Shown one piece after another: positions 24,754 to 40,032 of a stretch of DNA of 64,000 nt. This DNA is from Pseudomonas phage Baskent_P6: sequence record PQ415074.1, one strand, 5' to 3'. A program made the position numbers and the translations under genes. Below the pieces are notes generated by a model. That model was given only the letters and a program-made list of their open reading frames with translations, did not search any database and had not been told where the DNA came from. Position 1 is the stretch's first letter. Each line of letters starts with the position of its first letter.

Positions 24754-24818
24754 TGGCCAGGATCTGACTTGGGATATATTCAGCGCTTTCATTGTGTCCA
24801 CGGCTATAAGGAAGAGTC

Positions 24819-25109: not shown

Positions 25110-27284
25110 ATGTACGGGTTCAAGAAGGGCGCCAAGCCCAAGCAACGATTTGCAGATGGTGGGCGGGTGCGTGGTCCAGGCACTGGCACCTCCGACGACA
25201 TCGACACCGAGGTACCTGCGGGCAGCTACATCATGCCGGCCGACTCGACCGAGCAGATTGGGGAAGCGGCGTTGCAGGGTATGGGGGCGCCGGTCCCGGT
25301 CAGCCTGAGTAACGGCGAGTACCAGATGCCTCCCGAGCAGGTTCACGCCGTTGGCGTGCAGGCGCTGGACGCTGTGAAGAATGCCACTCATGTGCCGGTA
25401 GCCCAGCAGGCAAAAGGGTTCTCTCCGCGTAAAAGGGGAGGGAATGGCGCCGAGAAGCCAGAATTGTTCTTCGCCGACGGCGGGGTTGTTGATGGAGAGC
25501 GCAAAAAGCAGACCCGTTTCGACATCACCAACACGCCCGCCGCCCAGCGTGCTGCTGGCGTTGTGCCGGAGGCATCGGCTCCCGTAGCCACCAGCGGCTA
25601 CAGTGCAGACCCCACCATGGCAAGGGCGCAGGCCAATATCGATGCTGAACGGCAAGCAATGGCTGTGCATCGGCAGCGCACTGCTGATGCCGCGAATCTT
25701 CAGCCAGGAGTGGCGCCTGGCTACAGCGACAACCTCTATACCGCCAACGCCCAGGCACGTTCGGATGCAGCCCGACAGCAACAGGCTGTGGCGCAGTCCG
25801 GTGCGCTGCCAGATGCGCCGTCGGCGCAAGGCTTCGCGCCCTCGCGACAAGGTAATGACCCGGCCAGAGCTGCAAGGATGCAGGCTCAGTTTGATCAACC
25901 GGTAACGGGCCCTGATCGATCTAAAGCTGCTGGTTTCACTCCGCAATACCGCACCGAGGGACCAGGCTGGCGAACCGATTCGGTTCTTCGCGGGACGGGT
26001 GACGACGTAGCGCAGCAGTGGGCATCGGGTGAGTATGCCCGTGGCTTTGGAACTGGCGTGCGTGGGGCTCTTGCGGCGGTTCCCGCAGCGTTCGCTGATG
26101 CTGGTGAGGATGTCGGTCGACTGGCGGAACCGGTGGTCAACTTCGGTAAAGGGCTATTCGGATGGAATGACACTCCGCCGGCGCTTCGTGGTCAGCAGGC
26201 AGCCCAGGGTGCAGCGGCGCCAAGTTCCAGTGCTGCGCTGGGGCGAGGCCAGGTGTTGCCGGCTGCTGGTGCGCCAACCGGGGCGCTGGAGTCGGCGGCG
26301 AATACTGGAGCCGCTATGCCAAGCGCCGGAGGCTCGGACCTGCCCAACAACGTGACGCGAGTGGGTAACAGCTTCTCCGGTACAACAATCCGCCCAGGCT
26401 ACACCGTTAACGGGGAGGCTCAAGCTGCCGGGTTCACCCCAGGTGGTCAGCGGAGTGCTCAAAACCAACGCGCAGTGGAGAACCTGCTGGCCCGAACGCC
26501 TGATGTTGGTATGGGGTTCAGGCCGAGTTCTGTCTCCCAGGTACCGCCGATGGCCCCGGACGCGTTGGCTCAGTACAACGCCGGTAACTCCGGCGCGCCT
26601 CGGGTAACCGTGGTTCCCGATAGCTCTCGGGCCGATAGCGTTCGCCAAGCCGCCTTGAATGCAGCCTCAACACCTTATCGCGGTTCGCCGAACGGGCAGT
26701 TAACTGCCCGCCAGATCGACAACCTGTTCCGGCTGCAGCAGAGCGATGACCGCAATGCTACGTCCCTGGCGAGCATTCGAGCGAATAACGACACGGCCTT
26801 GGCGCGGGAGCAGGTGCAGCAGCAGGGCGCCAATCAGCGCGCGGCCCTACAGGAAATGGGGCAGGGCGCGCGCTTCCTCGCCTCCAACGAACTCGATCGC
26901 CAGCGCCTGGCTGGTGAGCAAGAGGCCAGGGGCTTCCAAACCCGCGCCGCCCAGCGCATCGAGAAGCTGTACGAGCAGTACGACAAGGCTGCTCCCGAAG
27001 ACCGAGCCGCGATCGCCGAACAGATTCGTGTGCTAGCCGGTAAGGACGCTCCGAATCGCTTCACCGTGGTACCCGGCGGCCAGGAGTACGACCCACAGGC
27101 CATGCAACTTCTGACGCGCCCTGCACGAGTACTCAACAATCAGACCGGCCAATTTATCGACCAGCAGGGCCAGCCGGCAGCGGCCGCCGGCGGAATCCCG
27201 CAGCCGAAGACTGCGGCCGAATACGAGGCCCTTCCCAAGGGCACCCAGTACATGAAAGACGGCCAACTGCGCGTCAAGGGCTAA
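25110..27284 (+). CDS. Low-complexity internal virion/ejection protein candidate, 724 aa
   Basis: Gly/Ala/Gln-rich and mostly disordered-like; repeated FADGG motif near the N-terminus; immediately upstream of the giant gene. Confidence 0.55.
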   Translation: MYGFKKGAKPKQRFADGGRVRGPGTGTSDDIDTEVPAGSYIMPADSTEQIGEAALQGMGAPVPVSLSNGEYQMPPEQVHAVGVQALDAVKNATHVPVAQQAKGFSPRKRGGNGAEKPELFFADGGVVDGERKKQTRFDITNTPAAQRAAGVVPEASAPVATSGYSADPTMARAQANIDAERQAMAVHRQRTADAANLQPGVAPGYSDNLYTANAQARSDAARQQQAVAQSGALPDAPSAQGFAPSRQGNDPARAARMQAQFDQPVTGPDRSKAAGFTPQYRTEGPGWRTDSVLRGTGDDVAQQWASGEYARGFGTGVRGALAAVPAAFADAGEDVGRLAEPVVNFGKGLFGWNDTPPALRGQQAAQGAAAPSSSAALGRGQVLPAAGAPTGALESAANTGAAMPSAGGSDLPNNVTRVGNSFSGTTIRPGYTVNGEAQAAGFTPGGQRSAQNQRAVENLLARTPDVGMGFRPSSVSQVPPMAPDALAQYNAGNSGAPRVTVVPDSSRADSVRQAALNAASTPYRGSPNGQLTARQIDNLFRLQQSDDRNATSLASIRANNDTALAREQVQQQGANQRAALQEMGQGARFLASNELDRQRLAGEQEARGFQTRAAQRIEKLYEQYDKAAPEDRAAIAEQIRVLAGKDAPNRFTVVPGGQEYDPQAMQLLTRPARVLNNQTGQFIDQQGQPAAAAGGIPQPKTAAEYEALPKGTQYMKDGQLRVKG

Positions 27285-27299: not shown

Positions 27300-30200
27300 A
27301 TGGCAGATACCTGGGGCGAGAACGACAAGATCGTGGATACCGCGGACTTCGGTGCGAACGACGAGGTGGTTGGCAAGGGGGAAGAGGGTCGCGGTGTTAT
27401 AGGGCATGCGCGCGACCTCGGCCTGTCTGTGGCCAAGGGGGTGATTGGGGTTCCGGAAGCGGCTGTTGGCCTCGCTGATATCCCAACAGAGGGCCGCGTA
27501 GGTAAGTTCCTCGAGAACCAGGACGGCATGCTCGGCTTCCGGCCCCGGGAGGCGAAGGATTTCCTGAGTGATCTGCACACCGATCAGTACAAACAGCAAC
27601 AGCAGGACTTTCAGGATGCTGATGGCGTCGTAGACAAGACGCTGCATGCTGTACAGAACCCGTCGATGGTCGTGAACACCGTAGCGGAGTCTTTGCCTTC
27701 CATGTTGGCGGGGGGCGCGGTCGGTCGTGGCGTTCGGGCGCTGGCTCCAGCGTTGGCACCTGTGGCAGCCGGCGCGGCTGGCGAAGGGGCGGTTATGGCT
27801 GGTCAGCAAGCAGAGCAGATCCGCCAAGAAACTGATGACGGCTTGCTCACTCCGGCGCAGTCGGGAGCTGCGGTGGCCACTGGTGTGTTGGGAAGTCTGT
27901 TTTCCCTTGCCGGCGGTAGCTTGGCCAAGAAACTGGGTATCGGTGATGCGGATACCCTCCTCGCTGGTGGTGCCAACCCAGGACAACTGGTCAGCGAGCT
28001 GGCGTCCATGCCGGCGAAGAGCATTCCGCGGAAGGTGATAGAGGGCGCAATCTCCGAGGGCTTCCTTGAGGAACTGCCACAGTCCGCATCTGAGCAGGTT
28101 CTGCAAAACCTGGCGCTGGGACGGGACTGGGCCAGCGGCCTGGATGAAGCGATGGTAATGGGAACGCTGGCCGGGATGGCCATGGGTGGGCCGGCGGCGG
28201 TTCTACATGGCGGTCAGCCGGCAGCGTCCCGTGGCCTGGCGGATGCGGACGCTACCTTCGAGAGTACCCCGGGCCTTGAGGGGCAGACCGAGACGACTGC
28301 GCCACTGGCACTCCCAGCTCCAGTGTATGAGGCTGGTTCTGACGGCCAGGTCCGGACCACGGTCGACCAGAACTCCGCTACCCAGGCACAGCGTCAGCAA
28401 GAGGCTGAACGTCTGGACCGAATCCGTCGAGGTGAAGTCACCGATGTGACTCCGGTCCCGGCGGCCCCAAAGCGCTCCGAGCAGATGGGTCTGGACCCGG
28501 CTGTTGGGCCACTGTCTGGTGCTGCTGCGCAGGCCGTGGACAGTGGCGCAACTGACCAGATGGTGCAACAAGCCGCGCTCCAGCAGGCAGCCGAGGAGGC
28601 GCAGAAGAGCGGCAGGAAAGGTGATCAGGTCAACCCGGAAACCGGTGAGATTACAGCGGAGCAGGGTGATCTGCTGGCATCCGATCCTGTCACCGATCTG
28701 CAGGGCCGCTTGGAATTTGTACGCCGGCAAGCCCGTGCCACCGGATGGGACGCGAAGAAAATCGCCGAGCGCGATCGCTTGCAGGAGGAACTGGACAAGC
28801 TCGCGCCAGCGCCGGATGCCGGCTACATGCAGCGCGTCGGTGAGCGCGTGAAGCGTATCGAGGCCGCGCAGAGCCCCGATGAAATTGCCGCGATCCTCGC
28901 CGAGGATCAGCAGGATGAGCAGCGCCACCAGAACGCCGCTGGCCGGGTGGAGCTAGCCGCCCGCGCTCGCGGCTTCGCCCTGGACCAGGCGGCGCAGCAG
29001 CAAGCCCCGACGCCAATCGGCGTGCAGGACGACATCCAGCAGGCCCAAGGCAAGGCTGACGCGCAGCAGGCGCAAGCCGCACAACCGGCTGTATCGCTGG
29101 CGCCGGCAGCGGAATCCGTACCGGCAGCACCTGCGACCGAGGCGAAAGCGACCAACCTGAAGGACGCCATTTCGAAGGTACGCCAGGCCAAACAGAAGCC
29201 CGAGCAGCCTGCGGCGCTGCAGGCCGTGCGTCGCGGAGAGGTGGGCGGAAAGCTGGGCAGTGGCGAAGTAGTGACCACCAGCAGCGGGCGGCAGACGACG
29301 CCTTTCCCGAAGGTCAGCGTGGACTCCAGCCGCAAGGCGACCAGCACCATCAAGGCCGTGGACCAGTGGCTGATGCAGAATGCCCTGGATGAAGCGCGCT
29401 CGCGCGGCGACGAGTTCAACGCGCGCCAGTTCGAGGCGAACCTGGCGAAGCCGCAGCGGGCCGATAAGGACGCTGCCGAGGAATACCTGTTCGGCCAACA
29501 GCCTGCTGTGCAGCCCCGCGTGCTGAAGCCACTGGCGCCGAAGTCTACCGCCACCGACAACAGCGCAAGCTGGGTCATCCGAAACAAGGAAACCGGTGAG
29601 GTGATCGCGGAAACGTTCGACCGTAAGAAGGTTGACGCGCTCAACACCGAGAAATACGAAGCGGTGCCGATCCAGCAGCACCTGGCGAGCCTGAACAAGC
29701 CCAAGGTGCCCAGCATCGAAGGCAAGGACATCGGCGAAGGGTGGGCGGAGTTCAGCAAGGAATCGGGCACCGTGGGTATCCCTCGCGCCGACATGCCGCA
29801 GATCAAGGCCGAGCACCGCGGCGCGATGGTGAACTTCCTGAGCGCTCGTGGCGTGCAGCATCAGGAAGAGACAGTTCCCGCAGATACCCTCAAACCGACG
29901 CAGGCTGAATTCAGCCGCGACAAGGTGGCGAAGGCCAAGGACTTCGAGGGTGGCAACCGCTCCATCTTGGTTTCGCGCGAAGGCAACGTGTTGGATGGGC
30001 ATCACCAGTGGATGGCCGCCCGCGACAACGGCGAAGAGGTGAGGGTGATTCGCCTGGATGCCCCCATCCGCGACCTGGTGAAACTGGCCCACGAGTTTCC
30101 CAGTTCCACCACCGATGCCAGCAGCGGGCAGGGTGCCACGGTTGACGCGAGACAGGTGAGGCCCGTGCCTGAGCCAGCCGCTCCTGATGTGCCGAAGAAG

Positions 30201-33200
30201 AGGCCGCGCGGCGTGCTGGCAAAGAGGTTCCAGGCTGAGGCCCAGGCCCGCGCCGAATACTTCACCCCCGGCAACGTGGTGCGAGGTTACGGCGCCAACT
30301 ACGACAGGGTTATCAGCTACAACCCGACCGAATCGGGAAGCTGGACCGTCACGGTGCGCAGTGTACGCAAGGAAGGCGACACCTGGGTGGATGTCCCGGG
30401 CGAGAGCGAGCGCACTCACATGACGGCGCCGGATGCGCGCGACATGAAGCGCGGCCCGGCCGGCCGTATCGCAACACAGGGGGCGCCAACCACCGATGAG
30501 TTCCCCTTGAAGGAAGCCGCCGCCAGCTACTCCGGTATCTCGAACAGCAGCAGCCAGCGAGCGAAGTCCGATGCGGATGAGTTCCAGACCTACATCGACG
30601 TGGCCCGCGACGCGGGCGCTGTCGTGGCGCGCACCGATGCTCAGCAGGCGGCCGTGGAGCAAGCCACACGAGAGTTGCGCGCCGATTACCTGGCCCAGTA
30701 CCGACGCCTGATGAACGTGCGCGCCGGCACCTACAGCGGTTATGTTGTCGGGCGTTCTGGACTGAACAGCAAGCAGGCGGACAGGCGCAACAGCGCCTAC
30801 GACCGCGCCATCGACACATTCGTGGCCTGGCAGAAGGCCAATCAGGATCGCGTGCGCCAGGCGGCCCTGGACGCCCGTACCGACGAGGAAAAGGCGGCAG
30901 ATCGCCAGGCCGCCGAGCAGGCCCGCGCCGACAAGGCGCAGCGCAAGGAAGACGGGGACCGCAGCCTGATGCGCAGGATTCTGTCCTGGAAGAAGGGCAG
31001 CGAGCCGGTGGCGATCACCAAGGCCGCGCACCTTGCCGGGGTGAACTTCGGCAAGGATGGCTACCCGACCAGCATTAAGTTGACGCCGACCGATGGCAGC
31101 GTGCTGACCAGCGACAAGTTCGACCTGGCGGCGCTGTTCCGTGAGCGCGGCATGAGCGTGCCGGAGTCGAAACGCCGCGTGCGTGAACTGGTCGATTTCG
31201 TGCGCGCCGAGGATGCAGCCCGGCCCCAGTCCGAACCGGCAGAGGCACCCAAGCCCGAGCCCGCGCAGCCCAGCGATTCTAAAACCCCGACGCTCGATGC
31301 GCATGTAGCCCTGATGCAGCGCGCGCGCAGTGGGGAGGCGACCGCCGACGAGTTCCGCCAGGCATTCGAGCGTACGCAGAACGCCCGCGACGCCCTGGTG
31401 GCCGAGCTGGGCACTATGAAGAAGGATGACCTGCTGAAGTCAGGCGGCTACAGCTTCTTCCACCGCTACCGCAACGAGAAGAAGGCAGCGATTGTCGATG
31501 CCCTGGTCGGTCGCGTGCTGGAGGAATTTGCGCTGGGCCGCAGCTACGGCCCGAGCAGCTACGTGATGTCGGCTGCCGGCCTAGAAGCGCACCGCCAGGC
31601 CAAGGCCAGCGCGCTGGCCGAGCTGGTGGCGAACACCACCGACGACGACATCAAGGCGCACGCCGCCGAGGTCGCCGAGGCGCAGCAGGAAGTCCAGGCT
31701 CGCCGGGAAGCGCAGCAGAAGGCTGTCGCCAACCCGCAGACCCTCGCCGAGTTCCGCCAGGCAGTGAGCTACAACATGGAGACGCACGGGGAGTCCCTGC
31801 GGGAGGCGTTCATGCGCCTGACGCCGGAACAGCGTATTCGCTACGACGAACTGGAGGCCGAGAGCACTAAGGCCCTGCGTGAGCAGGCCAAGGCACAGGC
31901 CAAGACCCGCGTAGCCAGCGCCGGGCAGACTACGGCCGGCGACATCATCGAGACGAAGCACACCAAGCACGGGCATGACCTTTTCGTGGTGCAACTGGCC
32001 GAGCGCGTCAGCCGCGAGGACTACGACACCCTGAACAATTCGGCGAAGCGGCTGGGCGGCAGCTACAGCAGTTACCGTGGGAATGGTGCTGTCCCCGGCT
32101 TCCAGTTCCGCACCCGCGAGGCGGCCGAAGCATTCCGCAAGCTGGTGACCGGCGACACCGCCGACGCGCAGGCCGTTGCAGAAGCGCGCCGCGACGCCTT
32201 CGAGGATGACCGCAACCAGAGCGCCGCCCAGCGGCTGCGCACCATGGCCCAGGCTCTCAACGAGCGGGCCGATGATTCCCTGAGCCGCGTACGCAAGCAG
32301 AACACCGATCGCCGTGCGCGGATGGCCGCCAGTGCCGAAGCCTCGGCGCGCGCCGACAAGGCACTGGCCGCCACCATGAACAACCTGGCTGCCGCCATCG
32401 AAGGCGGCAAGGCGAAGTTCCTGGACACCGTGCGGCAGAAAGTGCAAGTGGAGTTCCTGGCGCGGGAACTGCGCAATGCAAAGGACGCGCAAATTCGAGC
32501 GAAGTACCCGACTTATGGCGAGCAGGAGAAACACCGTGGCGAGCCGGTGGACGCCGAGACGGTGGACTACTCCACATTCCCCAGTTACACCGCCATGCGC
32601 TCCGACTTGGCGAGCCTGGCGCGCCAGATGGCGGAAGTGGACGGCCTGAAGAAACTGGCCGCGCGCCTGGAGAAGGTCGCCGACGATGTGACCGAGGCCT
32701 ACACCGGCTGGGCCAAGCAGAACCTTCTGTCCGTCAGCCGCTTCACCCGCGGTGACCAGTTCGCCGACTTTAAGAGTCGCGAGGATGCTGAGCGTGCCAT
32801 TCGCCGCTCCGGCCTCACCGGCAAGGCCATCGTGCTTCCGGTGAAACGCGGGCAGAACCGCATCGTCATGGCCCCCAGCGAAGCCATGAAGCTGGGCCTC
32901 TGGCAGGGCGACGGCGACAAGCGCATCACGCTGTCCGGCGAGTTCGGGGGCGAACTGGTGCAGGCCCTGGGCCGGCGCAGTGGCAGCAAGATCACCGTTC
33001 CGTGGGCGCTGGAGAGTGCGCACGAAAAGCGCAAGCGCCTGGAGAGCATGGGCATCCTCACCGGCAGCGAGTACCGCTCTGCACTGCGCGAGTTCGTAGC
33101 GCTGCGCGAGGCGCCCGCCGAGCCGGATAAGATCAAGCAGATGGAACGGGCGATGATCGGTCGTCGCAATGACGGCCTGGACTTCTTCCCAACCTCGGCC

Positions 33201-36200
33201 GCCGTCACCGAGGAAGCCATCGACGCCGCCGACATCCAGGGAGGCATGGACGTGCTGGAGCCTTCCGCCGGCATGGGCCATATGGCCGACGCGATCCGCG
33301 AGCAGACCGGCGTGGAGCCCGAAGTGGTGGAGCTTTCCGGAGAACGCCGCGAGTTGCTGGAGGCCAAGGGCTACAACCTGGTCGGATCCGACTTCATGGA
33401 GGTGTCCGGCAAGCAGTACGACCGTATCGTGATGAACCCGCCGTTCTCCAAGGGGCGCGACATCCAGCACGTACAGCACGCCTACAGCCTGCTGAAGCCC
33501 GGCGGCCGCCTGGTTGCCATCATGAGCGAAGGCGCCTTCTTCCAGAGCAACAAGGCCGCCGAGAACTTCCGTGCCTGGCTGGACGGCCTGGGTGCCACCA
33601 GTGAACGGCTGCCGGAAGGTTCGTTTATGGACCCAGCGCTATCCGTCAATACCGGCGTGAACGCGCGCATGGTGGTGATCGACAAGCCGGCAGCCGAAGA
33701 GTCGGCAGCGCCGCAGCCCGGCGAACAACCGCCTGTGCAGTACTCGTTCACCGGACGCAATGCCGTCGGCGCCAACCTGCATGCCCTGAGCACCGCGCAG
33801 CAGCGCATCGCCATGGGCGAAAACGCCGAGGCCGTTCGTCGAGATACCGGCTGGCACCGCGGCACTGATGGCAAGTGGCGCTTCGAAATCAGCGATCATC
33901 AGGCCAGCATCGCCGTGGCCGGTGAGACTGCTGGCGCCATCATCGATATGGCCCACCTCAATGCCATCAACGACGAGCGTAGTCGACCGACTGTAGGCGA
34001 TGTGCTCAGCCATCCTCAACTGTTCGCTGCATATCCTGACCTGCAGCGTATCCCGGTGGCAGTGATGCCAGAGGGCGTCACTGCGCTGGCTCGCCTACGC
34101 CGGTTCGCCACTGGTAACCAAGTTGAGGTTCAGGCGAACATGCCGCGCACCGAGGTTGCCTCGGCGATCCTGCACGAACTCCAGCATGCGATACAGATCC
34201 GGGAAGGTTTCGCCATGGGTGGCTCGGCCAGGGCTTTCGTCAGCAACTTCGACAAGACTGGTGCGGCGACCTATCGTCGTTTGGCTGGAGAGGTGGAGGC
34301 GCGCAACACGCAGGCTCGTCTGAAAATGACGCCGCGCCTGCGCCGGGACATTGCACCCGATGAGTCGGCGGACATCCCTGCAAGTCAGGTGCTGGTGTCG
34401 TTCAATGGCCGCGACATCGAGAATGGCCCGTTGCCGCAGAACCTGACGGGGCGTCCGCCGATGACCTCGCACAGCCTGGTGCGTGCTTTCGACCTGCAGT
34501 TCCCAGCCCTGGGCCAGGCTGTGCGCAAGATGCTGAAGCGCGGCAAGGAAGGACAACGGGGCGGCTTGGTGGTGATCGACAGCGCCGACCCGTTGCGCAT
34601 CGCGCACACCTACGCGCGGAAATCCGGTACCGCACTGAGCGATGCCGTTCAACTGTTTGAGGATGGCGAGCGCATCAATGGCTTCTACGATGCCAGATCA
34701 GGTCTAACTTTTCTGGTCGGCCCGAACCTGAATCCGGTAACCGCCCCGGCCGTGGTGCTTCACGAAATGGTTCACGGCCAGCAGCGACAGAATCTCGACC
34801 AGGCTGCCCACGCCATGCTGATGAATCGCGGCAACGTGCGGAGCGCCGAACTGCGCACCTTCCTGGACCGTGTGGCCAGCCGCATGATCGAGTCCGGCGA
34901 GAGCCGCAACATGAAGGAGGCCGCTCCGTATATCGTGGAGCAGGCTGTTATTGAAGGGCGAGAGCAGGGATTCGCCGAGGCTGATAGCCGGTTCCTGTCC
35001 TGGGTAGACAGTGCGCTGGGCAAGCAGGTGGGTGACTTCCTGCGTAGGTTCCTGGCCAACATCCGTCAGTGGATGCTGCGCCACGGTCTGCCGGTTGGCC
35101 GCATCAGCGTGGACGATCTGGTGCGATATGCGATGGCTGGTGTGGAAAGCGCCGCCGAAGGCCGGGTACGGGGCGACGGCCTAGCCATGAGCCAGGACGA
35201 CATGCGAAAGGCGCGCGTGCTGCAAGGCCCGCCGGTGGCCATCCTGGAGGGGAATGAAGCACCACAGGGCTTCGCTGCGGTTCGCGAGTGGGCGGCGAAG
35301 CTATTCGAGTCTCAAGGTGGCAAGGCAGTGAACCCGGACCTGGGCGACGTGGTGCTGGATATGCGCGCTGTGCGCGACTCGATGGCGCATGGCAAGGCCA
35401 ACCCATACAAGTTCTCGGCGTTCGCGGCCGTCAAGGACGTGCTGGAGCGAGGTGTGGTGGTTCACCGCGCGGACTATGAGAAGGGGGAGAGTTTCTACGT
35501 GTCGGCGCCGGTGGTGATCGACGATAAGGATGACATCGTGACTGTGTTGGTGCGCCGCGATCCGAACATGCAGCGCATGTATCTGCATTCGGTGGCCACA
35601 AAAGAATATCTCCTGAACCGTCGAGTATCCGGTGCTGATGCCATGATGGCAGCGCAGCCTTCCGGCTCGTCCAGTTCAGGAGACGTAGCCAGTGTACTCC
35701 AGCGGCTGCTGACCGCAAGCCTGAATGAACCCGAAGGTCCGCAGTTCAGTCGCTCCGGTCTGCGCGAACTCACCAGCAAGGCTACCGCCGAACTGAACAA
35801 GACCTTCAGCGCTCCGGGAGGCCTGTCCTGGTGGCACAAGACCATCGGCACCATGTACAACCTCGCAGAGCGTTCCCCGGCATTCAAGCCGGTCTTCGAG
35901 TCGGCGCAAGGATTTATCGATGACGTGAGCTATTACGCCAGCGATGCGGCTGATCTGGCGCCGAAACTGCTGCCGAAGCTGGAAACCTGGCGCGACATTG
36001 CAAAGTCCCCGGTGGGCGCTGAGGACAACAAGGCGGTGGCCAAGCCGGTATTCGAGGGCACGCTGATGTGGGCGCGCGACGTGGACGGCAAGCCGGTGCG
36101 CGTCGATTCGCTGGCTGAGCGCGCCATGCGTCTGACGGCCGACGAGAAGGCGGACATCCTGCTGAAGCAGGGCAAGATTCCCGAGGGACTGCTGCGCGCC

Positions 36201-38648
36201 TGGCGCGGCCTGAGCCCCGAGCAGTTCGCGAAGATGATCGACAGCCGCTACGAGTCGCAGATGCTCAAGGCAGGCATCGTCTGGACCGACGCTGAGCTGC
36301 GCGACATGTGGAAGCTCAACGATGCGCAGGTCGCGCTGTACCGCGAGTTCCGCGCCGCCACCGACCGTAGCCTGGACACCATGGCCCGCGCCGACATGCT
36401 GCGCTTCGGCGGCGAGGATGTGAAGGAACTGCGCGACCAGGTGATGGACGCGGCCGATGCGCAGGAGGGGGCCGCGATACTGCGCGACCACCTGGCGCAG
36501 ATGGCTGATGCATGGCCGGAACGCGCCACGAACCTGCTGAACCTGGCACACGGCATGACGGATCGCGCCGAGAAGGTCGCCCAGTTGCAGGGCGAGGGCT
36601 ATGCACCGCTGTCGCGCTTCGGCAAGTACACCGTGGATGTGGTGGACGCGAACGGCGAGCGCCAGTATTTCAGCCTGTTCGAGACCAAGCGCGAGGCGAA
36701 CCTGATGGCCGAGCAGATGCGCGGCGCCTTCCCTGGCGCCACCGTCAGTCAGGGCACGCTGTCCGAGGAAAGCTACAAGCTATTCGCCGGCATCACCCCG
36801 GAAACCCTGGAACTGTTCGGCAACGCCCTGGGCTTCGACTCGGAGGGCGACAGCGCCCGCGACCAGGCGTTCCAGGAATACCTGCGCCTGACCAAGACCA
36901 ACCGTTCCGCGATGCGCCGGTTGATCCACCGCAAGGGCATCGCCGGCTACAGCGAGGACGTGGGCCGCGTGTTGGCATCGTTCATCTACTCCAACTCCCG
37001 GCAGACCGCCGCCGGCCTGCACATGGGCAACCTTTCCGAGGCTGTGAACGGCATCCCACAGGCGCAGGGCGAACTGAAGGACGCCGCGGTACGGCTGGCC
37101 GACTACATCAAGAACCCGCAAGAGGAGGGGCAGGCGGTGCGCGGACTGCTGTTTGCGCAGTACCTCGGCGGGTCCGTCGCGTCAGCCTTCGTCAACATGA
37201 CCCAGCCGGTCCAAGTGACTTTTCCCTGGTTGAGTCAGTATTGCGGGGTGAAGCGCGCTGCGGCGGAACTGGGGCGGGCAGCACGACAGATGGCGCAGCG
37301 CTCCTATCAGTTCGAACCGGACCTGGCCCGGGCATTAAAGCGCGCAGAGGATGATGGGGTGGTGTCCCCGCAGGAGGTCCACCAGTTGATGGCGCAGGCC
37401 CGCGGCAGCGGCTCGCTGCGCGCCGGGGACGGGACGCGCTTGGGTGATGCTCGAGCACTTGCGTCCAACAGCGTGGCGCGCCTGTCGATGGCCTGGGGCA
37501 AGTTGTTCGGCGCCGCAGAGCAGATCAACCGCCGCATGACTTACATCGCGTCGTATCGCATCGCCAAAGCGCAGAACATGGCCAATCCTGACGAGTTCGC
37601 ACGCCGGGCCGTGCGCGAGACGCAGTTCGTATACTCCAAGGCCAGCAAGATGCGCTGGGGGCGTGGTGCCGTCGGCGGCACCTTGATGACCTTCAAGACG
37701 TACAGCGTGGCCTATCTTGAGCTGATGCATCGCTTGTGGAATCAGGGTGAGCCTGGTTCGCAGGAGCGCAAGGACGGTCGGAAGGCTGCTGCCCTGATGA
37801 TCGGCATGCTGCTGCTCGTCGGCGGCGCCGGTGGCTTGCCGTTCGCCGAAGACGCCGAAGACCTGATCGACGGTGCGGCGCAACTCATGGGCTACAACTT
37901 CTCTACCGCGAAGGCCAAACAGGAGTTTCTGGAAGGTCTGTTTGGTCGGGTGCTTGCCGACTTCATTGATCGCGGGGTGTCCGGACTGCCTGGTGCTCCG
38001 CTCGATGCCTCAGGCCGGCTGGGCATGGGGAACCTGATTCCTGGAACCCGGCTACTCCAGCCCGCCCCCGCGAATATTCGCGATGTGCTTGAAATAGCTG
38101 GCCCCATGGGGGACTTCGCGAATCGCATCCTTGAGGGCGGGAAAAAGATCGCCAGTGGCGACATCGGTAGCGGGTTGCTGGAAATATCCCCGGGGGCGGT
38201 ACGAAACGCTGCCAAGGGTGTGGATATGCTCGCCACTGGGATGTACCGAGACACGAAGGGCTACAAGGTCTTGGATACCAACACGCTTGAGGCCGCGATG
38301 AAGATGATCGGTTTCCAGCCTGCCAGTGTGGCGACCATTCAGGAAGCCAACATGCTCAGTCAGAAGGCGAAGGCCTTCTACAACCTGAAGGCGCAAGAAA
38401 TCCGCAGTATGTGGGCGGCCGGCATCTTCGAGAAAGACCAGGGCAAGGTTGAGCGCGCGCGGCAAGCAATAGCCGACTGGAATCGGCGCAACCCTGACCA
38501 GCCAATGGCCATCCGAGTGCCAGACATCATGCGACGAGTCCGCGAAATGTCGCTATCGAAGGACGAACGGATAGCGAAGACCGCACCGAAAGCGATGCGG
38601 CAGCAGATGCGAGAGGATCTGGAGCGCACCCGCGCAGCGCTGGACTGA
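27300..38648 (+). CDS. Giant polyvalent protein (3782 aa): ParB-like domain + N6-adenine-type MTase domain + two HExxH zincin motifs + long helical C-terminal region
   Basis: Single uninterrupted ORF with RBS AGAGGA. ParB/Srx-like segment ILVSREGNVLDGHHQWMAARDNGEEVRVIRLD (about nt 29,900-30,060). MTase motif I VLEPSAGMGHMADAI (about nt 33,245) and motif IV NPPF (about nt 33,440). HExxH motifs HELQH (about nt 34,175) and HEMVH (about nt 34,760). The six-frame ORFs on the opposite strand are R-rich junk. Confidence 0.8.
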   Translation: MADTWGENDKIVDTADFGANDEVVGKGEEGRGVIGHARDLGLSVAKGVIGVPEAAVGLADIPTEGRVGKFLENQDGMLGFRPREAKDFLSDLHTDQYKQQQQDFQDADGVVDKTLHAVQNPSMVVNTVAESLPSMLAGGAVGRGVRALAPALAPVAAGAAGEGAVMAGQQAEQIRQETDDGLLTPAQSGAAVATGVLGSLFSLAGGSLAKKLGIGDADTLLAGGANPGQLVSELASMPAKSIPRKVIEGAISEGFLEELPQSASEQVLQNLALGRDWASGLDEAMVMGTLAGMAMGGPAAVLHGGQPAASRGLADADATFESTPGLEGQTETTAPLALPAPVYEAGSDGQVRTTVDQNSATQAQRQQEAERLDRIRRGEVTDVTPVPAAPKRSEQMGLDPAVGPLSGAAAQAVDSGATDQMVQQAALQQAAEEAQKSGRKGDQVNPETGEITAEQGDLLASDPVTDLQGRLEFVRRQARATGWDAKKIAERDRLQEELDKLAPAPDAGYMQRVGERVKRIEAAQSPDEIAAILAEDQQDEQRHQNAAGRVELAARARGFALDQAAQQQAPTPIGVQDDIQQAQGKADAQQAQAAQPAVSLAPAAESVPAAPATEAKATNLKDAISKVRQAKQKPEQPAALQAVRRGEVGGKLGSGEVVTTSSGRQTTPFPKVSVDSSRKATSTIKAVDQWLMQNALDEARSRGDEFNARQFEANLAKPQRADKDAAEEYLFGQQPAVQPRVLKPLAPKSTATDNSASWVIRNKETGEVIAETFDRKKVDALNTEKYEAVPIQQHLASLNKPKVPSIEGKDIGEGWAEFSKESGTVGIPRADMPQIKAEHRGAMVNFLSARGVQHQEETVPADTLKPTQAEFSRDKVAKAKDFEGGNRSILVSREGNVLDGHHQWMAARDNGEEVRVIRLDAPIRDLVKLAHEFPSSTTDASSGQGATVDARQVRPVPEPAAPDVPKKRPRGVLAKRFQAEAQARAEYFTPGNVVRGYGANYDRVISYNPTESGSWTVTVRSVRKEGDTWVDVPGESERTHMTAPDARDMKRGPAGRIATQGAPTTDEFPLKEAAASYSGISNSSSQRAKSDADEFQTYIDVARDAGAVVARTDAQQAAVEQATRELRADYLAQYRRLMNVRAGTYSGYVVGRSGLNSKQADRRNSAYDRAIDTFVAWQKANQDRVRQAALDARTDEEKAADRQAAEQARADKAQRKEDGDRSLMRRILSWKKGSEPVAITKAAHLAGVNFGKDGYPTSIKLTPTDGSVLTSDKFDLAALFRERGMSVPESKRRVRELVDFVRAEDAARPQSEPAEAPKPEPAQPSDSKTPTLDAHVALMQRARSGEATADEFRQAFERTQNARDALVAELGTMKKDDLLKSGGYSFFHRYRNEKKAAIVDALVGRVLEEFALGRSYGPSSYVMSAAGLEAHRQAKASALAELVANTTDDDIKAHAAEVAEAQQEVQARREAQQKAVANPQTLAEFRQAVSYNMETHGESLREAFMRLTPEQRIRYDELEAESTKALREQAKAQAKTRVASAGQTTAGDIIETKHTKHGHDLFVVQLAERVSREDYDTLNNSAKRLGGSYSSYRGNGAVPGFQFRTREAAEAFRKLVTGDTADAQAVAEARRDAFEDDRNQSAAQRLRTMAQALNERADDSLSRVRKQNTDRRARMAASAEASARADKALAATMNNLAAAIEGGKAKFLDTVRQKVQVEFLARELRNAKDAQIRAKYPTYGEQEKHRGEPVDAETVDYSTFPSYTAMRSDLASLARQMAEVDGLKKLAARLEKVADDVTEAYTGWAKQNLLSVSRFTRGDQFADFKSREDAERAIRRSGLTGKAIVLPVKRGQNRIVMAPSEAMKLGLWQGDGDKRITLSGEFGGELVQALGRRSGSKITVPWALESAHEKRKRLESMGILTGSEYRSALREFVALREAPAEPDKIKQMERAMIGRRNDGLDFFPTSAAVTEEAIDAADIQGGMDVLEPSAGMGHMADAIREQTGVEPEVVELSGERRELLEAKGYNLVGSDFMEVSGKQYDRIVMNPPFSKGRDIQHVQHAYSLLKPGGRLVAIMSEGAFFQSNKAAENFRAWLDGLGATSERLPEGSFMDPALSVNTGVNARMVVIDKPAAEESAAPQPGEQPPVQYSFTGRNAVGANLHALSTAQQRIAMGENAEAVRRDTGWHRGTDGKWRFEISDHQASIAVAGETAGAIIDMAHLNAINDERSRPTVGDVLSHPQLFAAYPDLQRIPVAVMPEGVTALARLRRFATGNQVEVQANMPRTEVASAILHELQHAIQIREGFAMGGSARAFVSNFDKTGAATYRRLAGEVEARNTQARLKMTPRLRRDIAPDESADIPASQVLVSFNGRDIENGPLPQNLTGRPPMTSHSLVRAFDLQFPALGQAVRKMLKRGKEGQRGGLVVIDSADPLRIAHTYARKSGTALSDAVQLFEDGERINGFYDARSGLTFLVGPNLNPVTAPAVVLHEMVHGQQRQNLDQAAHAMLMNRGNVRSAELRTFLDRVASRMIESGESRNMKEAAPYIVEQAVIEGREQGFAEADSRFLSWVDSALGKQVGDFLRRFLANIRQWMLRHGLPVGRISVDDLVRYAMAGVESAAEGRVRGDGLAMSQDDMRKARVLQGPPVAILEGNEAPQGFAAVREWAAKLFESQGGKAVNPDLGDVVLDMRAVRDSMAHGKANPYKFSAFAAVKDVLERGVVVHRADYEKGESFYVSAPVVIDDKDDIVTVLVRRDPNMQRMYLHSVATKEYLLNRRVSGADAMMAAQPSGSSSSGDVASVLQRLLTASLNEPEGPQFSRSGLRELTSKATAELNKTFSAPGGLSWWHKTIGTMYNLAERSPAFKPVFESAQGFIDDVSYYASDAADLAPKLLPKLETWRDIAKSPVGAEDNKAVAKPVFEGTLMWARDVDGKPVRVDSLAERAMRLTADEKADILLKQGKIPEGLLRAWRGLSPEQFAKMIDSRYESQMLKAGIVWTDAELRDMWKLNDAQVALYREFRAATDRSLDTMARADMLRFGGEDVKELRDQVMDAADAQEGAAILRDHLAQMADAWPERATNLLNLAHGMTDRAEKVAQLQGEGYAPLSRFGKYTVDVVDANGERQYFSLFETKREANLMAEQMRGAFPGATVSQGTLSEESYKLFAGITPETLELFGNALGFDSEGDSARDQAFQEYLRLTKTNRSAMRRLIHRKGIAGYSEDVGRVLASFIYSNSRQTAAGLHMGNLSEAVNGIPQAQGELKDAAVRLADYIKNPQEEGQAVRGLLFAQYLGGSVASAFVNMTQPVQVTFPWLSQYCGVKRAAAELGRAARQMAQRSYQFEPDLARALKRAEDDGVVSPQEVHQLMAQARGSGSLRAGDGTRLGDARALASNSVARLSMAWGKLFGAAEQINRRMTYIASYRIAKAQNMANPDEFARRAVRETQFVYSKASKMRWGRGAVGGTLMTFKTYSVAYLELMHRLWNQGEPGSQERKDGRKAAALMIGMLLLVGGAGGLPFAEDAEDLIDGAAQLMGYNFSTAKAKQEFLEGLFGRVLADFIDRGVSGLPGAPLDASGRLGMGNLIPGTRLLQPAPANIRDVLEIAGPMGDFANRILEGGKKIASGDIGSGLLEISPGAVRNAAKGVDMLATGMYRDTKGYKVLDTNTLEAAMKMIGFQPASVATIQEANMLSQKAKAFYNLKAQEIRSMWAAGIFEKDQGKVERARQAIADWNRRNPDQPMAIRVPDIMRRVREMSLSKDERIAKTAPKAMRQQMREDLERTRAALD

Positions 38649-38705: not shown

Positions 38706-38726
38706 CCGGGGCGTGATGCCCCGGCC
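38706..38726 (+). terminator. Hairpin (GCCGGGGC-GTGAT-GCCCCGGC) + CTTT between the giant gene and the holin; weak terminator/attenuator candidate
   Basis: Read from sequence; the U-tract is poor. Confidence 0.3.
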
Positions 38727-38742
38727 TTTGGAGGATGGAGTT

Positions 38743-39000
38743 ATGTCGGAGAGGGCCGGAATGGCGGTAGAGGTGGTGGGCGTTTCGGTGGCCAACAAGA
38801 CCACGCTGGCTGGCGCCCTTGCGGGCGCGTTGGGCTGGCTGGCGCAGATCAACTGGGTGGGGCTGATCGGCGTGCTGGTCGCCGTCATCGGCCTGCTGGC
38901 CAATATCTATTTCCAGGTTCGCCGCGACCGCCGCGAATCAGCCGAGAGCGCTGCCCGCATCGAGGCCATCCGGGGGCGTGGCGATGTCGAACAGCCGTAA
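38743..39000 (+). CDS. Holin (class II-like, 85 aa)
   Basis: RBS GGAGG; two TM segments (TTLAGALAGALGWLAQI and WVGLIGVLVAVIGLLANIYF) then a charged C-terminus RRDRRESAESAAR; directly upstream of and overlapping the endolysin. Confidence 0.7.
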   Translation: MSERAGMAVEVVGVSVANKTTLAGALAGALGWLAQINWVGLIGVLVAVIGLLANIYFQVRRDRRESAESAARIEAIRGRGDVEQP

Positions 39001-39517
39001 CCGCGTGCTGGTTGCTGCGCTGACCGTCAGCCTGGCCGGCTTCGGCGCCTGGATGAAGTCGGAGGATTTCAGCGCGAAACCATACGTGCCAACCAAGGGC
39101 GACGTTCCGACCATCGGTTACGGCTCCACCCGCTACGAGAATGGCCAATCGGTGAAGCTGACCGATCCGCCGATCACCCGCCAGCGCGGCGAACAACTCG
39201 CGCGCAACCTGATGGCGAAGGACGAACAGCAGTTCCGCGACTCGTTGCCCGGCGTGAAGCTGTTCCAGGAGGAGTATGACCTGTACCTGGATTTCACGGG
39301 CCAGTTCGGCATCACCAACTGGCGCGGTAGCTCGATGCGCCGCGACTTGCTCGCCGGCAACTACCAGCAGGCGTGCGACGACCTGCTGAAGTGGCGCAAC
39401 CAGGCAGGCCGCGACTGCTCGCTGCCGAAGAACTGGGGGCCGAGGGGCTGCAAAGGCGTGTGGACCAGACAGCAGGAGCGGCATGCGCAATGCATCGCCG
39501 TGCAGGTGCCGCAATGA
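38978..39517 (+). CDS. Endolysin, GH24 lysozyme with N-terminal SAR-like signal-anchor
   Basis: E..D..T catalytic arrangement in EDFSAKPYVPTKGDVPTIGYGST, plus KWRNQAGRD and GVWTRQ motifs as in phage 21/lambda-family lysozymes; N-terminal VLVAALTVSLAGFGAW hydrophobic Gly/Ala-rich segment. Confidence 0.85.
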   Translation: MAMSNSRNRVLVAALTVSLAGFGAWMKSEDFSAKPYVPTKGDVPTIGYGSTRYENGQSVKLTDPPITRQRGEQLARNLMAKDEQQFRDSLPGVKLFQEEYDLYLDFTGQFGITNWRGSSMRRDLLAGNYQQACDDLLKWRNQAGRDCSLPKNWGPRGCKGVWTRQQERHAQCIAVQVPQ

Positions 39518-40032
39518 CCGCCCGCGAACTGGGCGTAGTCCTGGCTGCGATAGCGCTGGCTGGCCTGGTGGCCAGCACGCTGACCTATCGGCACCTGTAC
39601 CAGGACGCCACCGCCAACCTGAAGTCGCTGAGCGACCAGGTGGAGCGGCAGAACGCCGAGGCTGACGCCAAGCTGGCCGAGCTGACCGCGCAGCGCGACA
39701 TGAAACAGGCAGCGCTCAATAAGGCCGCTGCCGACCAAGAGAGGAAGGACAACGATGCTCAGGCTGAAATCGCTCGCCTTGCTGGTGAGCTGCGCGACCG
39801 CCCTGTGCGCGTGCGCATCGTCCCCGCCGCAGGTGGGGGCTGTAGTGGTGGCGCCGCAGGTGACGCAGCCGGCACCGCCGAAGCTGGTGCAGGAGACTCC
39901 GCCTCGGCCTACGGGCTACTACCGGAAGAAAATTCTCGACGCTTTAACGACTCCCTGAGCGAAGTCGAAACCCTGAGCGCGGCCTACAACTCGTGTCGCG
40001 CCCGGTTGATTCCCCAAGAGCCGACCCCGTAG
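39514..40032 (+). CDS. Rz: Rz-like i-spanin
   Basis: ATGA overlap with the endolysin; N-terminal TM LGVVLAAIALAGLVASTL; coiled-coil periplasmic domain; contains embedded Rz1. Confidence 0.7.
   Translation: MTARELGVVLAAIALAGLVASTLTYRHLYQDATANLKSLSDQVERQNAEADAKLAELTAQRDMKQAALNKAAADQERKDNDAQAEIARLAGELRDRPVRVRIVPAAGGGCSGGAAGDAAGTAEAGAGDSASAYGLLPEENSRRFNDSLSEVETLSAAYNSCRARLIPQEPTP
39755..39958 (+). CDS. Rz1: Rz1-like o-spanin (lipoprotein), embedded in the +1 frame of Rz
   Basis: Signal peptide + lipobox LLVSC; Pro-rich mature part; entirely within Rz in another frame. Confidence 0.65.
   Translation: MLRLKSLALLVSCATALCACASSPPQVGAVVVAPQVTQPAPPKLVQETPPRPTGYYRKKILDALTTP

What the first reader, a model, noticed from the sequence alone, without database searches (positions are those of the whole stretch)
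27300..38648. 3782-aa polyvalent protein with ParB-like, N6-MTase and two zincin motifs, encoded after the internal virion proteins
One ORF of 11.3 kb (about 18% of the window) carries several domains. A ParB/Srx-like segment (ILVSREGNVLDGHHQWMAARD) sits at about nt 29,900-30,060. A gamma-type amino-MTase core has motif I VLEPSAGMGHMADAI (about nt 33,245) and motif IV NPPF (about nt 33,440). Two separate HExxH metallopeptidase-like motifs are HELQH (about nt 34,175) and HEMVH (about nt 34,760). The N-terminus is glycine-rich and hydrophobic. A C-terminal helical region of about 1000 aa ends the protein. The gene follows the 630-aa and 724-aa low-complexity proteins and precedes the lysis cassette, the position of ejected internal proteins in podovirus-like genomes. 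This architecture matches the 'polyvalent protein' concept (multi-effector anti-defence proteins delivered with the DNA; DarB of P1 is a smaller cousin). The particular domain order and the double zincin look unusual and are functionally unassigned.
Basis: partly seen in the sequence, partly recalled or inferred. Interest (0 to 1): 0.75.

Follow-up and report, generated by a model that had tools for sequence, protein, structure and literature searches.

The report
Giant injected multi-enzyme phage virion protein
This 3782-residue gene of an F116-like Pseudomonas phage is a real, already catalogued virion protein that joins a DNA-ejection anchor to a string of enzyme-like domains, so it is an interesting but known kind of "polyvalent" phage protein.

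Summary
The window is an F116-like (Hollowayvirus) Pseudomonas aeruginosa phage or prophage. The identical protein is already in NCBI as "PLxRFG domain-containing protein". Its H66 ortholog gp60 is annotated as found in virions by mass spectrometry.

Domain tests support most of the reading:
- Amino-methyltransferase with gamma-type motif order, closest to N6-adenine enzymes.
- Two separate zincin-like HExxH domains, with catalytic residues invariant across homologues.
- Pfam LPD23 and LPD3.
- A C-terminal PLxRFG module of about 990 aa, linked in the literature to T7 gp16.

The claim of unusualness fails. The tandem zincin pair recurs in at least 20 of 100 related giant proteins. The architecture fits the polyvalent proteins of Iyer et al. 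2017 and the "DarB-like" giants of Bcep22-like phages. P1 DarB shares only a distant methyltransferase core.

New here: phage F116 carries an ART-PolyVal ADP-ribosyltransferase exactly where this phage has LPD3, flanked by nearly identical sequence. That indicates swappable effector cassettes.

Verdict: new member of a known kind, moderate-to-low interest.

The parts
27300..38648 (+). Whole gene: 3782-aa (410.7 kDa, pI 6.3) polyvalent virion protein
   Evidence: 100% identical to sequenced Hollowayvirus phages; the exact protein is named 'PLxRFG domain-containing protein' in NCBI
27300..28289 (+). N-terminal Gly/Ala-rich, moderately hydrophobic module (aa 1-330)
   Evidence: Composition. Hydropathy peaks at aa 40-58, 190-208 and 284-302. 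aa 98-490 match the N-terminal part of PHROG 2206 'virion RNA polymerase' (E 1.7e-12). Recurs at the N-terminus of 18 of 100 giant homologues.
28290..29549 (+). Gln/Ala-rich low-complexity linker (aa 331-750)
   Evidence: Composition table; no family hits
29562..29699 (+). Small mobile module SWVIRNKETGEVIAETFDRKKVDALNTEKYEAVPI (aa 755-800)
   Evidence: PHROG 25603 (E 2e-20). The same ~46-aa module is fused to unrelated small proteins, including CbtA_toxin-like and DUF6874 domains.
29706..30104 (+). ParB/Srx-fold domain (aa 803-935); invariant MPQ, LKPTQ and DGHH-W
30120..32216 (+). Unassigned region (aa 941-1639)
   Evidence: No Pfam, NCBIfam or PDB hit. Parts recur in a few giant homologues.
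32217..33704 (+). Methyltransferase module (aa ~1640-2135): helical N-terminal extension plus Rossmann core with FFPTS (motif X), VLEPSAGMG (I) and NPPF (IV)
   Evidence: Pfam MTS 27.3 bits (cut-off 23) and Methyltransf_23 27.2 (cut-off 27). 4721 homologues. Profile versus PDB: MJ0882 2e-7, HsdM-like adenine MTase 2e-7, M.TaqI 5e-6, KsgA/Erm. The N-terminal extension is shared with stand-alone MTases.
33738..34409 (+). Zincin-like domain 1 (aa 2147-2370): LPD23 followed by LHELQHAIQ..EGFA.GG and YRRLAGEVEARN
   Evidence: Pfam LPD23 E 3e-21. HE.QH, the downstream GEVEAR and other residues are invariant in 16 homologues. 10 of 16 members hit DUF6782 'putative metallopeptidase' (best 4e-7), plus M78, eCIS_core and MPTase-PolyVal weakly.
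34440..35174 (+). Zincin-like domain 2 (aa 2381-2625): LHEMVH ... E2540 ... Y2544
35277..35582 (+). LPD3 domain (aa 2660-2761), sitting in a swappable cassette slot (aa ~2640-2815)
   Evidence: Pfam LPD3 E 8e-14. F116 has ART-PolyVal (E 6e-39) at this position, with 95-99% identical flanks.
35670..38600 (+). C-terminal anchor/ejection module: unassigned pre-domain (aa 2791-3095) plus PLxRFG domain (aa 3100-3767; PLSRFG at aa 3103; hydrophobic segment at aa 3497-3515)
   Evidence: NCBIfam NF032893 E 1e-235, 784 bits against cut-off 100. Motif. Hydropathy. The two parts co-occur in homologues. Literature assigns it to the IVP-D/T7 gp16 family (PMC4819975). My own check against T7 gp16 was only weakly positive.
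38713..40032 (+). Context: lysis cassette (holin, endolysin, Rz-like spanin) immediately downstream
   Evidence: PHROG hits; H66 annotation
22861..27284 (+). Context: upstream 630-aa and 724-aa proteins of unknown function in the structural module
   Evidence: Only family-specific PHROGs of unknown function hit. Their status as internal virion proteins is not shown.

Best explanation
This is the F116-group version of the large internal virion (ejection) protein of podophages, built as a polyvalent effector carrier.

- The conserved C-terminal ~990 aa (pre-domain plus PLxRFG domain, IVP-D/gp16-like) and the hydrophobic Gly/Ala-rich N-terminus most likely do two jobs. They get the protein packaged in the capsid core, and they help form or pass through the trans-envelope channel at infection.
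- The middle ~2000 aa is cargo delivered into the cell with the DNA. It holds a ParB/Srx-fold domain (NTP-binding and/or DNA-nicking type), an amino-methyltransferase most like N6-adenine enzymes, and an LPD3 domain of unknown activity. The methyltransferase probably methylates the incoming phage DNA before host restriction enzymes act.
- The two zincin-like HExxH domains most likely cut the giant polypeptide into separate working pieces, as Iyer et al. proposed for such MPTases. They might also cleave host targets.
- The cargo is modular and exchanged between close relatives.

Shown: the domain identities and folds, conserved catalytic residues, gene position, recurrence of the architecture, and the cassette swap. 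Taken from annotation or literature: virion location and IVP-D homology. Inferred: ejection into the cell, the DNA substrate of the MTase, and self-processing by the zincins.
For: - Virion location: the H66 gp60 ortholog (97.5% identical) is annotated 'verified by mass spectrometry as part of the virion'. The Bcep22-like JC1 gp69, in the same gene position, was detected in CsCl-purified virions (PMC9144972).
- Ejection-protein homology: Hardies 2016. PLxRFG E 1e-235. Position at the end of the structural module, before lysis.
- Cargo domains: ParB/Srx fold. MTase with gamma motif order, best PDB matches to adenine MTases. LPD23 and LPD3.
- Modularity: architectures of 100 giant homologues. LPD3 versus ART-PolyVal swap in F116.
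- Selection for an intact full-length ORF: 440-member cluster, mostly 3782-3788 aa.
Against: - No direct evidence here that the protein leaves the capsid, is cleaved, or methylates DNA.
- The MTase has no recognisable target-recognition domain. Its best matches include rRNA and unknown-substrate enzymes (MJ0882, KsgA, MTS).
- The ParB-like domain has Gln where related motifs (DGHHR in homologue P0019) have Arg. It fails all Pfam ParB models at their thresholds.
- My own profile test against T7 gp16 was not significant by hhalign (E 0.023, probability 2%) and only locally suggestive by hmmsearch. PDB profile searches with the C-terminal domain found nothing.
- The F116 reference sequence has a frameshift inside the MTase. 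If that is real, the MTase is dispensable.
Confidence: 0.65

Rival explanations
1. The methyltransferase and ParB-like domains act on host molecules (rRNA, tRNA, a protein, or host DNA) as take-over or anti-defence effectors. On this view they do not protect phage DNA from restriction.
For: The best Pfam model is MTS (rRNA m2G-type), and the best PDB hit is MJ0882. KsgA, Erm and METTL5 are in the list. No target-recognition domain was found. In F116 the neighbouring cassette slot holds an ADP-ribosyltransferase, a typical host-modifying enzyme. Iyer et al. suggest ParB domains may nick or degrade host DNA.
Against: Motif X (FFPT-P/S) directly before motif I is typical of gamma-class DNA adenine MTases. 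M.TaqI and an HsdM-like enzyme align from motif X to motif IV. P1 DarB's MTase core also matches (E 3e-6). The precedent for virion-borne MTases is anti-restriction.
Confidence: 0.25
2. The protein is essentially a structural core or ejection scaffold, and its enzyme-like domains are inactive relics or spacers.
For: The F116 reference has a frameshift that removes most of the MTase core. The ParB-like motif lacks the Arg. About 1400 aa have no recognisable domain.
Against: Catalytic signatures are strictly conserved across distant homologues: HExxH in 73 of 73; E2540 and Y2544 invariant; LEPSAG.G and NPPF invariant. The ORF is kept intact in hundreds of prophage copies. The F116 split may be a sequencing error in a 2005 record.
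Confidence: 0.07
3. The long ORF is an artefact: a pseudogene, a fusion of separate genes, or a chance ORF in GC-rich DNA.
For: Some records annotate it as two (F116) or three (CF63a) genes. High-GC DNA here does give long spurious ORFs on the opposite strand, such as 783 aa at 28953-31304.
Against: The single ORF is preserved in at least 30 phage genomes and a 440-member cluster. Every segment has homologues in frame. The H66 product was seen by mass spectrometry.
Confidence: 0.02

Closest known systems
Pseudomonas phage H66 gp60 and its F116 (p59+p60), phiC725A_54 and LKA5 orthologs
   Same: Orthologous: 97.5% identity over 3755 aa to H66 gp60. Same gene position. Annotated as a structural protein verified by MS. 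Described as an IVP-D homologue carrying a SAM-methylase site (PMC4819975, PMC5217972).
   Different: The first ~30 residues differ (3782 versus 3787 aa). F116 has ART-PolyVal instead of LPD3, a more diverged zincin 2, and a frameshift in the MTase. The papers I read did not describe the ParB/Srx, zincin and LPD content for this group.
Polyvalent proteins of phages and conjugative elements (Iyer, Burroughs, Anand, de Souza, Aravind 2017, PMC5512222)
   Same: A giant polypeptide combining a zincin-like MPTase, an adenine methylase, a ParB-type domain and LPD domains. It is encoded beside virion genes. The proposed logic is delivery with the DNA followed by proteolytic processing.
   Different: The methylase here is not paired with a SWI2/SNF2 helicase or LPD36. 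The ParB-like domain does not match the DdrB-type ParB by HMM. Neither zincin passes the Pfam MPTase-PolyVal model.
'DarB-like antirestriction' giants of Bcep22-like Burkholderia, Ralstonia, Erwinia and Serratia podophages (e.g. JC1 gp69, 4515 aa)
   Same: Same position (last gene of the morphogenesis module, before lysis). Virion-associated by MS. They share the PLxRFG C-terminus (PHROG 10089) and the ParB-like domain at 46-52% identity.
   Different: Different length and cargo set. The name 'DarB-like' is by analogy, and anti-restriction activity has not been shown for them in the papers I read.
Phage P1 DarB (and DdrB)
   Same: A virion-borne protein carrying an amino-MTase. The MTase profile matches DarB aa 93-197 (E 3e-6). 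DdrB has an HExxH region that both zincin profiles touch weakly.
   Different: No helicase here. DarB has no PLxRFG, ParB or zincin match. The ParB profile does not hit DdrB. P1 is a myovirus with a different packaging route for Dar proteins.
T7 gp16 (IVP-D) and coliphage N4 gp50 virion RNA polymerase
   Same: Large internal proteins ejected with the DNA. The literature places the C-terminus of H66 gp60 in the same extended family as T7 gp16 and the C-terminal domain of N4 gp50. The N-terminal region resembles that of the N4-like vRNAP PHROG.
   Different: No lytic transglycosylase domain (unlike T7 gp16) and no RNA polymerase domain (unlike N4 gp50) was found. The 'internal virion polymerase' label on phiC725A is therefore not supported. 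My direct profile comparison with T7 gp16 was not significant.

Membership tests
Polyvalent proteins (Iyer et al. 2017) | Several unrelated enzymatic or effector domains in one very large polypeptide | tested here: met
   ParB/Srx fold, MTase, two zincin-like domains, LPD3
Polyvalent proteins (Iyer et al. 2017) | Signature LPD or MPTase domains defined on this class | tested here: met
   Pfam LPD23 75 bits and LPD3 52 bits, both against cut-off 27
Polyvalent proteins (Iyer et al. 2017) | Encoded among late or virion genes of a phage, or in a conjugation locus | tested here: met
   Between the structural genes and the lysis cassette
Polyvalent proteins (Iyer et al. 2017) | Domain shuffling between related elements | tested here: met
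   Variable cargo among 100 giant homologues. LPD3 replaced by ART-PolyVal in F116.
Polyvalent proteins (Iyer et al. 2017) | Delivered into the recipient cell with the DNA and processed there | not testable with these tools
   Only virion presence of the H66 ortholog is on record
PLxRFG domain proteins (NCBIfam NF032893, 'tail-700') | Match to the family model above its cut-off, and the PLxRFG motif | tested here: met
   784 bits against cut-off 100, aa 3100-3767. PLSRFG at aa 3103.
IVP-D / T7 gp16 ejection proteins | Sequence homology of the C-terminal region to gp16 | tested here: inconclusive
   hhalign of A6 against T7 gp16: E 0.023, probability 2%. hmmsearch gave a local match, 361-417 versus gp16 1098-1149, E 4.5e-4 with one target. 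No PDB hit. Hardies 2016 reports HMM-HMM E 8e-19 through intermediate families.
IVP-D / T7 gp16 ejection proteins | Syntenic position after the tail and other internal protein genes | tested here: met
IVP-D / T7 gp16 ejection proteins | N-terminal lytic transglycosylase domain (T7 type) | tested here: not met
   No SLT or lysozyme family hit anywhere in the protein
ParB/Srx superfamily | Characteristic alpha+beta fold | tested here: met
ParB/Srx superfamily | Match to a Pfam ParB-type model (ParBc, ParBc_2, DdrB-ParB) at threshold | tested here: not met
   No hit for this sequence at E up to 10. ParBc_2 in 4 of 14 homologues, best E 0.043. The profile does not hit P1 DdrB.
ParB/Srx superfamily | Conserved active-site Arg after the Gly-containing motif | tested here: inconclusive
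   The motif here is DGHHQW. Gln is the family norm, and one homologue (P0019) has DGHHRW. That this position is equivalent to the canonical Arg is my inference from motif shape, not from a structural superposition.
Gamma-class N6-adenine (amino) methyltransferases | Motif order X (F-x-T-P) then I (E/D-x-x-x-G-x-G) then IV ((N/D)PP(F/Y)) | tested here: met
   FFPTS, VLEPSAGMG, NPPF. The T36, LEP-AG-G and NPPF columns are invariant in 21 homologues. M.TaqI and an HsdM-like MTase align across X to IV.
Gamma-class N6-adenine (amino) methyltransferases | Family model above the curated threshold | tested here: inconclusive
   MTS 27.3 against 23 and Methyltransf_23 27.2 against 27 pass. N6_Mtase 16.9 against 20.4 and Eco57I 20 against 25.3 do not.
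Gamma-class N6-adenine (amino) methyltransferases | DNA substrate and a target-recognition domain | not testable with these tools
   No TRD was recognised. The substrate needs biochemistry or methylome data.
Zincin-like metallopeptidases (MPTase of polyvalent proteins) | Invariant HExxH plus a downstream third ligand | tested here: met
Zincin-like metallopeptidases (MPTase of polyvalent proteins) | Match to a curated peptidase family model at threshold | tested here: not met
Zincin-like metallopeptidases (MPTase of polyvalent proteins) | Zincin fold | tested here: inconclusive
P1 DarB family | Adenine methylase paired with a SWI2/SNF2 or DExH helicase | tested here: not met
   No helicase or ATPase domain found. 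Only the MTase core matches DarB.
N4-like virion RNA polymerase | Single-subunit RNA polymerase domain | tested here: not met
   No polymerase family hit. Only the N-terminal non-catalytic part of PHROG 2206 matches.

The most novel reading that the evidence does not exclude
The segment at aa ~2640-2815 may be a defined 'socket' in which close relatives swap effector cassettes: LPD3 here and in about 30 sequenced relatives, ART-PolyVal in F116. If so, LPD3 would be an uncharacterised injected enzyme or inhibitor, functionally interchangeable with an ADP-ribosyltransferase. In addition, the Arg-less ParB/Srx-like domain and the adjacent 46-aa module (also found fused to CbtA-type toxins) may represent a new injected effector family with a target other than DNA partition or nicking.
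Probability: 0.25. Interest if true: 0.55.

Novelty: new member of a known kind. Interest (0 to 1): 0.3.

Why it matters
Proteins that phages inject with their DNA act before any phage gene is expressed, so they help decide whether an infection survives host defences. F116-like phages are common prophages and generalized transducers of P. aeruginosa, including isolates from cystic fibrosis lungs. A residue-level domain map with conserved catalytic residues and an identified swappable cassette gives concrete targets for mutagenesis: NPPF, the two HExxH motifs, DGHHQ and LPD3. It also allows a natural comparison (F116 versus H66-type) for testing what each cargo domain counters. The class itself and this protein's virion location are already known, so the gain is incremental.

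Tried and rejected
- Pfam, NCBIfam and PHROG scans of the whole protein and of ten sub-segments gave no ParB hit. Nothing was found for aa 1-330, 701-1020, 941-1640, 2351-2650 or 2801-3150.
- phmmer of the whole protein against PDB sequences found only MJ0882, at E 0.03.
- Profile-versus-PDB searches for the ParB-like domain, zincin 1, zincin 2 and the PLxRFG domain found nothing meaningful.
- Zincin 1 versus zincin 2 by hhalign shows only a 37-column match around the strand plus HExxH helix (E 2e-4, probability 44%). They are not a recent duplication.
- Self-BLAST found no internal repeats.
- Profiles against P1 DarB and DdrB found only the MTase core.
- Profile against T7 gp16 was not significant.
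- Foldseek of zincin 2 against BFVD returned mostly weak hits to pieces of other large polyvalent proteins, with one hit below 1e-3.
- The afdb50 library was unavailable.
- tblastn of the N-terminal 500 aa finds only F116-like phages and a few marine phages, not N4.
- From memory, aa ~1540-1600 resembled DUF3560. Pfam did not confirm this, so I dropped it.
- Literature searches for 'PLxRFG' and 'LPD23' found no functional study.
Full report
**What the window is**

The 11.3-kb region is 100% identical at the DNA level to 12 temperate Pseudomonas aeruginosa phages from CF and bronchiectasis lungs (vB_Pae_CF24a, BR313a and others). It is 96-98% identical to H66, PA8, phiC725A and other members of the genus Hollowayvirus, the F116-like podophages. 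The exact 3782-aa protein is already in NCBI as "PLxRFG domain-containing protein [Pseudomonas aeruginosa]". It is seen on 51 contigs and belongs to a 440-member cluster at 90% identity, whose full-length members are 3782-3788 aa.

**Checking the observation**

- ORF 27300-38648 (+) has an ATG start, 3782 codons and no internal stop.
- All five quoted motifs are present within a few bases of the stated positions.
- HELQH and HEMVH are the only HExxH motifs. The protein's composition predicts 0.044 by chance.
- The N-terminal 300 residues are 13-15% Gly, with three moderately hydrophobic Gly/Ala-rich stretches.
- The upstream 630-aa and 724-aa ORFs and the downstream holin, endolysin and spanin are confirmed.
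- The protein is 410.7 kDa.

**Domain by domain**

(a) ParB/Srx.
- No Pfam ParB model hits this sequence, even at E up to 10. A profile of 14 homologues finds no ParB in PDB sequences.
- Four of 14 homologues touch Pfam ParBc_2 faintly.
- The fold claim stands, but this is a divergent family. It is not detectably the DdrB-type ParB of P1. Most members have DGHHQ, while one has DGHHR.
- The domain occurs in 204 phage records. These include the "DarB-like" giants of Burkholderia, Ralstonia and Erwinia podophages, and apparently separate genes in large myophages.

(b) A separate small module. Just upstream, aa 755-800 is a separate 46-aa module (PHROG 25603). It is also found fused to small unrelated proteins, some with a CbtA_toxin-like domain or DUF6874.

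(c) Methyltransferase.
- On the isolated segment, Pfam MTS and Methyltransf_23 pass their cut-offs. N6_Mtase and Eco57I do not.
- The family is very large, with 4721 hits, many of them stand-alone proteins of 200-370 aa.
- In 21 homologues the columns F-F-P-T-P (motif X), L-E-P-S-A-G-x-G (motif I) and N-P-P-F (motif IV) are invariant or nearly so. This protein has FFPTS in motif X.
- The profile's best solved relatives are MJ0882 (2e-7), an HsdM-like adenine DNA MTase (2e-7), M.TaqI (5e-6), then KsgA/Erm/METTL5-type RNA adenine MTases and HemK.
- "Gamma-type amino-MTase, most like N6-adenine enzymes" is supported. The substrate is not established, and no target-recognition domain was seen.
- A helical stretch at aa ~1640-1722 is shared with stand-alone homologues, so the MTase module is larger than its core.

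(d) Zincin 1.
- Pfam LPD23 (58 positions) is only the N-terminal tip of a ~225-aa unit, aa 2147-2370. More than 100 homologues cover the whole unit.
- Within it, LHE-QH-IQ-EGFA-GG and YRRLAGEVEARN are conserved, with H, E, H and the G-E-x-E-A-R residues invariant.
- Ten of 16 homologues hit DUF6782 ("putative metallopeptidase", best 4e-7). Others touch Peptidase_M78, eCIS_core, MPTase-PolyVal and M90.

(e) Zincin 2.
- The unit spans aa 2381-2625 and has 174 representative clusters, almost all inside proteins of 2000-5500 aa.
- HExxH is present in 73 of 73. H2488, E2489, H2492, E2540 and Y2544 are invariant in 22 diverse sequences.
- Nine of 22 homologues hit DUF6782 weakly.
- The two units resemble each other only around the strand plus HExxH helix. 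They are two distinct zincin-like domains, not a recent duplication.

(f) LPD3. It lies at aa 2660-2761 (E 8e-14).

(g) C-terminus. NCBIfam PLxRFG covers aa 3100-3767 (E 1e-235). PLSRFG is at aa 3103, and the strongest hydrophobic segment of the protein is at aa 3497-3515. The preceding ~300 aa travel with it in homologues.

(h) Unassigned. About 700 aa (941-1640) and the Q/A-rich linker (331-750) remain unassigned.

**Is the architecture unusual?**

No. I mapped my segment queries onto 100 representative giant homologues.
- Zincin 1 immediately followed by zincin 2 appears in at least 20 of them.
- The Gly-rich N-terminus appears in 18.
- The PLxRFG end appears in 19.
- The MTase appears in 12, often with the same upstream region.
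- The ParB-like domain appears in 10.

These parts occur in many combinations, and single-sequence searches undercount. The plan [quoted passage not shown] is a family trait.

**What is already known**

- The RefSeq record of H66 notes that gp60 was "verified by mass spectrometry as part of the virion".
- Hardies et al. 2016 placed H66 gp60 in an extended T7 IVP-D (gp16) family. They noted the embedded SAM-methylase site, compared it with N4 gp50, and noted that F116 has the gene split in two.
- The phiC725A paper repeats this.
- Iyer et al. 2017 defined polyvalent proteins with exactly these ingredients: zincin MPTase, adenine methylase, a distinct ParB and LPDs. They proposed delivery with the DNA and processing by the MPTase.
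- Bcep22-like phages carry a 4500-aa "DarB-like" protein in the same gene position, detected in virions. It shares the PLxRFG end and the ParB-like domain.

P1 DarB itself is only a distant relative through its MTase core (E 3e-6). It has no counterpart of the other domains, and this protein has no helicase. My own attempt to reproduce the gp16 link was inconclusive.

**New detail**

Comparison with F116 shows 89-100% identity along most of the protein. Exceptions are the terminal ~100-200 residues at each end (78-84% identity) and the gap at the F116 frameshift. Identity falls to 42% and 18% in the aa 2601-2800 windows. There, F116 encodes an ART-PolyVal ADP-ribosyltransferase (Pfam E 6e-39) in place of LPD3. 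The LPD3 version is in 31 phage records. The ART version is in F116 only, with distant copies in USP_18 and USP_25. This is direct evidence that the cargo is exchanged as cassettes between near-identical phages, as expected for effectors under conflict.

The F116 reference also has a frameshift right after MTase motif I (aa ~1995), which creates p59 and p60. CF63a is annotated in three pieces. Both could be sequencing errors.

**Most likely mechanism**

The protein is packaged in the capsid core through its IVP-D-like C-terminal module. It is ejected at infection, with the hydrophobic N- and C-terminal segments taking part in envelope passage. It brings its cargo domains into the cytoplasm with the leading DNA. 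The zincin pair then releases the cargo by cleavage. The MTase modifies incoming DNA against restriction. The ParB/Srx-like domain and LPD3 act on DNA or on host factors.

- Shown: the domains, their conserved catalytic residues, gene position, recurrence and modularity.
- From annotation or literature: virion presence and gp16 homology.
- Inferred: ejection, processing and substrates.

**Verdict**

The finding is a well-populated, already named protein family whose class and virion role are published. I rate it a new member of a known kind with modest interest. The LPD3/ART cassette swap and the divergent ParB-like domain are the most useful leads.

Noticed in passing
window 35220-35744 (aa ~2640-2815); L002 (F116) about 11778-12296: F116 carries an ART-PolyVal ADP-ribosyltransferase (Pfam E 6e-39) exactly where this phage and about 30 relatives carry LPD3. 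The flanks are 95-99% identical, so this is an effector cassette swap inside one gene.
   Followed up: yes
L002 (F116, NC_006552) locus 3839-15200; equivalent to window ~33280-33630: In the F116 reference the giant gene is split into p59 and p60 by a frameshift just after MTase motif I (match to this protein ends at aa 1995). p60 restarts at an internal Met near aa 2110, so NPPF is in neither annotated product. This could be a real loss or an error in the 2005 sequence.
   Followed up: partly
L003 (vB_Pae_CF63a, MK511040) locus 501-11849: A 99.7% identical phage has the gene annotated as three CDS (1010, 773 and 1986 aa), probably from indels in the assembly. In one search the BR313a record matched in two pieces spanning 127 bp more than the query.
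   Followed up: no
window 29562-29699 (aa 755-800): A 46-aa module (SWVIRNKETGEVI...DALNTEKYEAVPI) is 70-80% identical to the N- or C-terminal parts of many small unrelated proteins. Some are fused to a CbtA_toxin-like domain (PF06755), and one to DUF6874. Its function is unknown.
   Followed up: partly
window 27300-27400 and 38100-38648: The first ~30 residues differ between this 3782-aa form and the 3787-aa H66-type form (matches start at residue 28-36). The last ~200 residues are the least conserved part against H66 and F116 (81-85% identity).
   Followed up: no
window 28953-31304 (-) and 31581-33479 (-): Long antisense ORFs of 783 and 632 aa overlap the giant gene. They are the usual stop-poor opposite-strand ORFs of 65% GC DNA, and I saw no evidence that they are genes.
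   Followed up: no
LT603684 / NC_073674 (phiC725A) annotation of the ortholog: The ortholog is labelled 'putative internal virion polymerase'. No polymerase domain was detectable in the protein, so the label seems to come from the analogy with N4 gp50.
   Followed up: partly
window 27260-27305: The ATG at 27300 lies 15 nt after the stop of the 724-aa ORF. A GAGGA sequence ends only 1 nt before the ATG, which is unusually close for a ribosome-binding site. An AAGAGAG lies further upstream.
   Followed up: no
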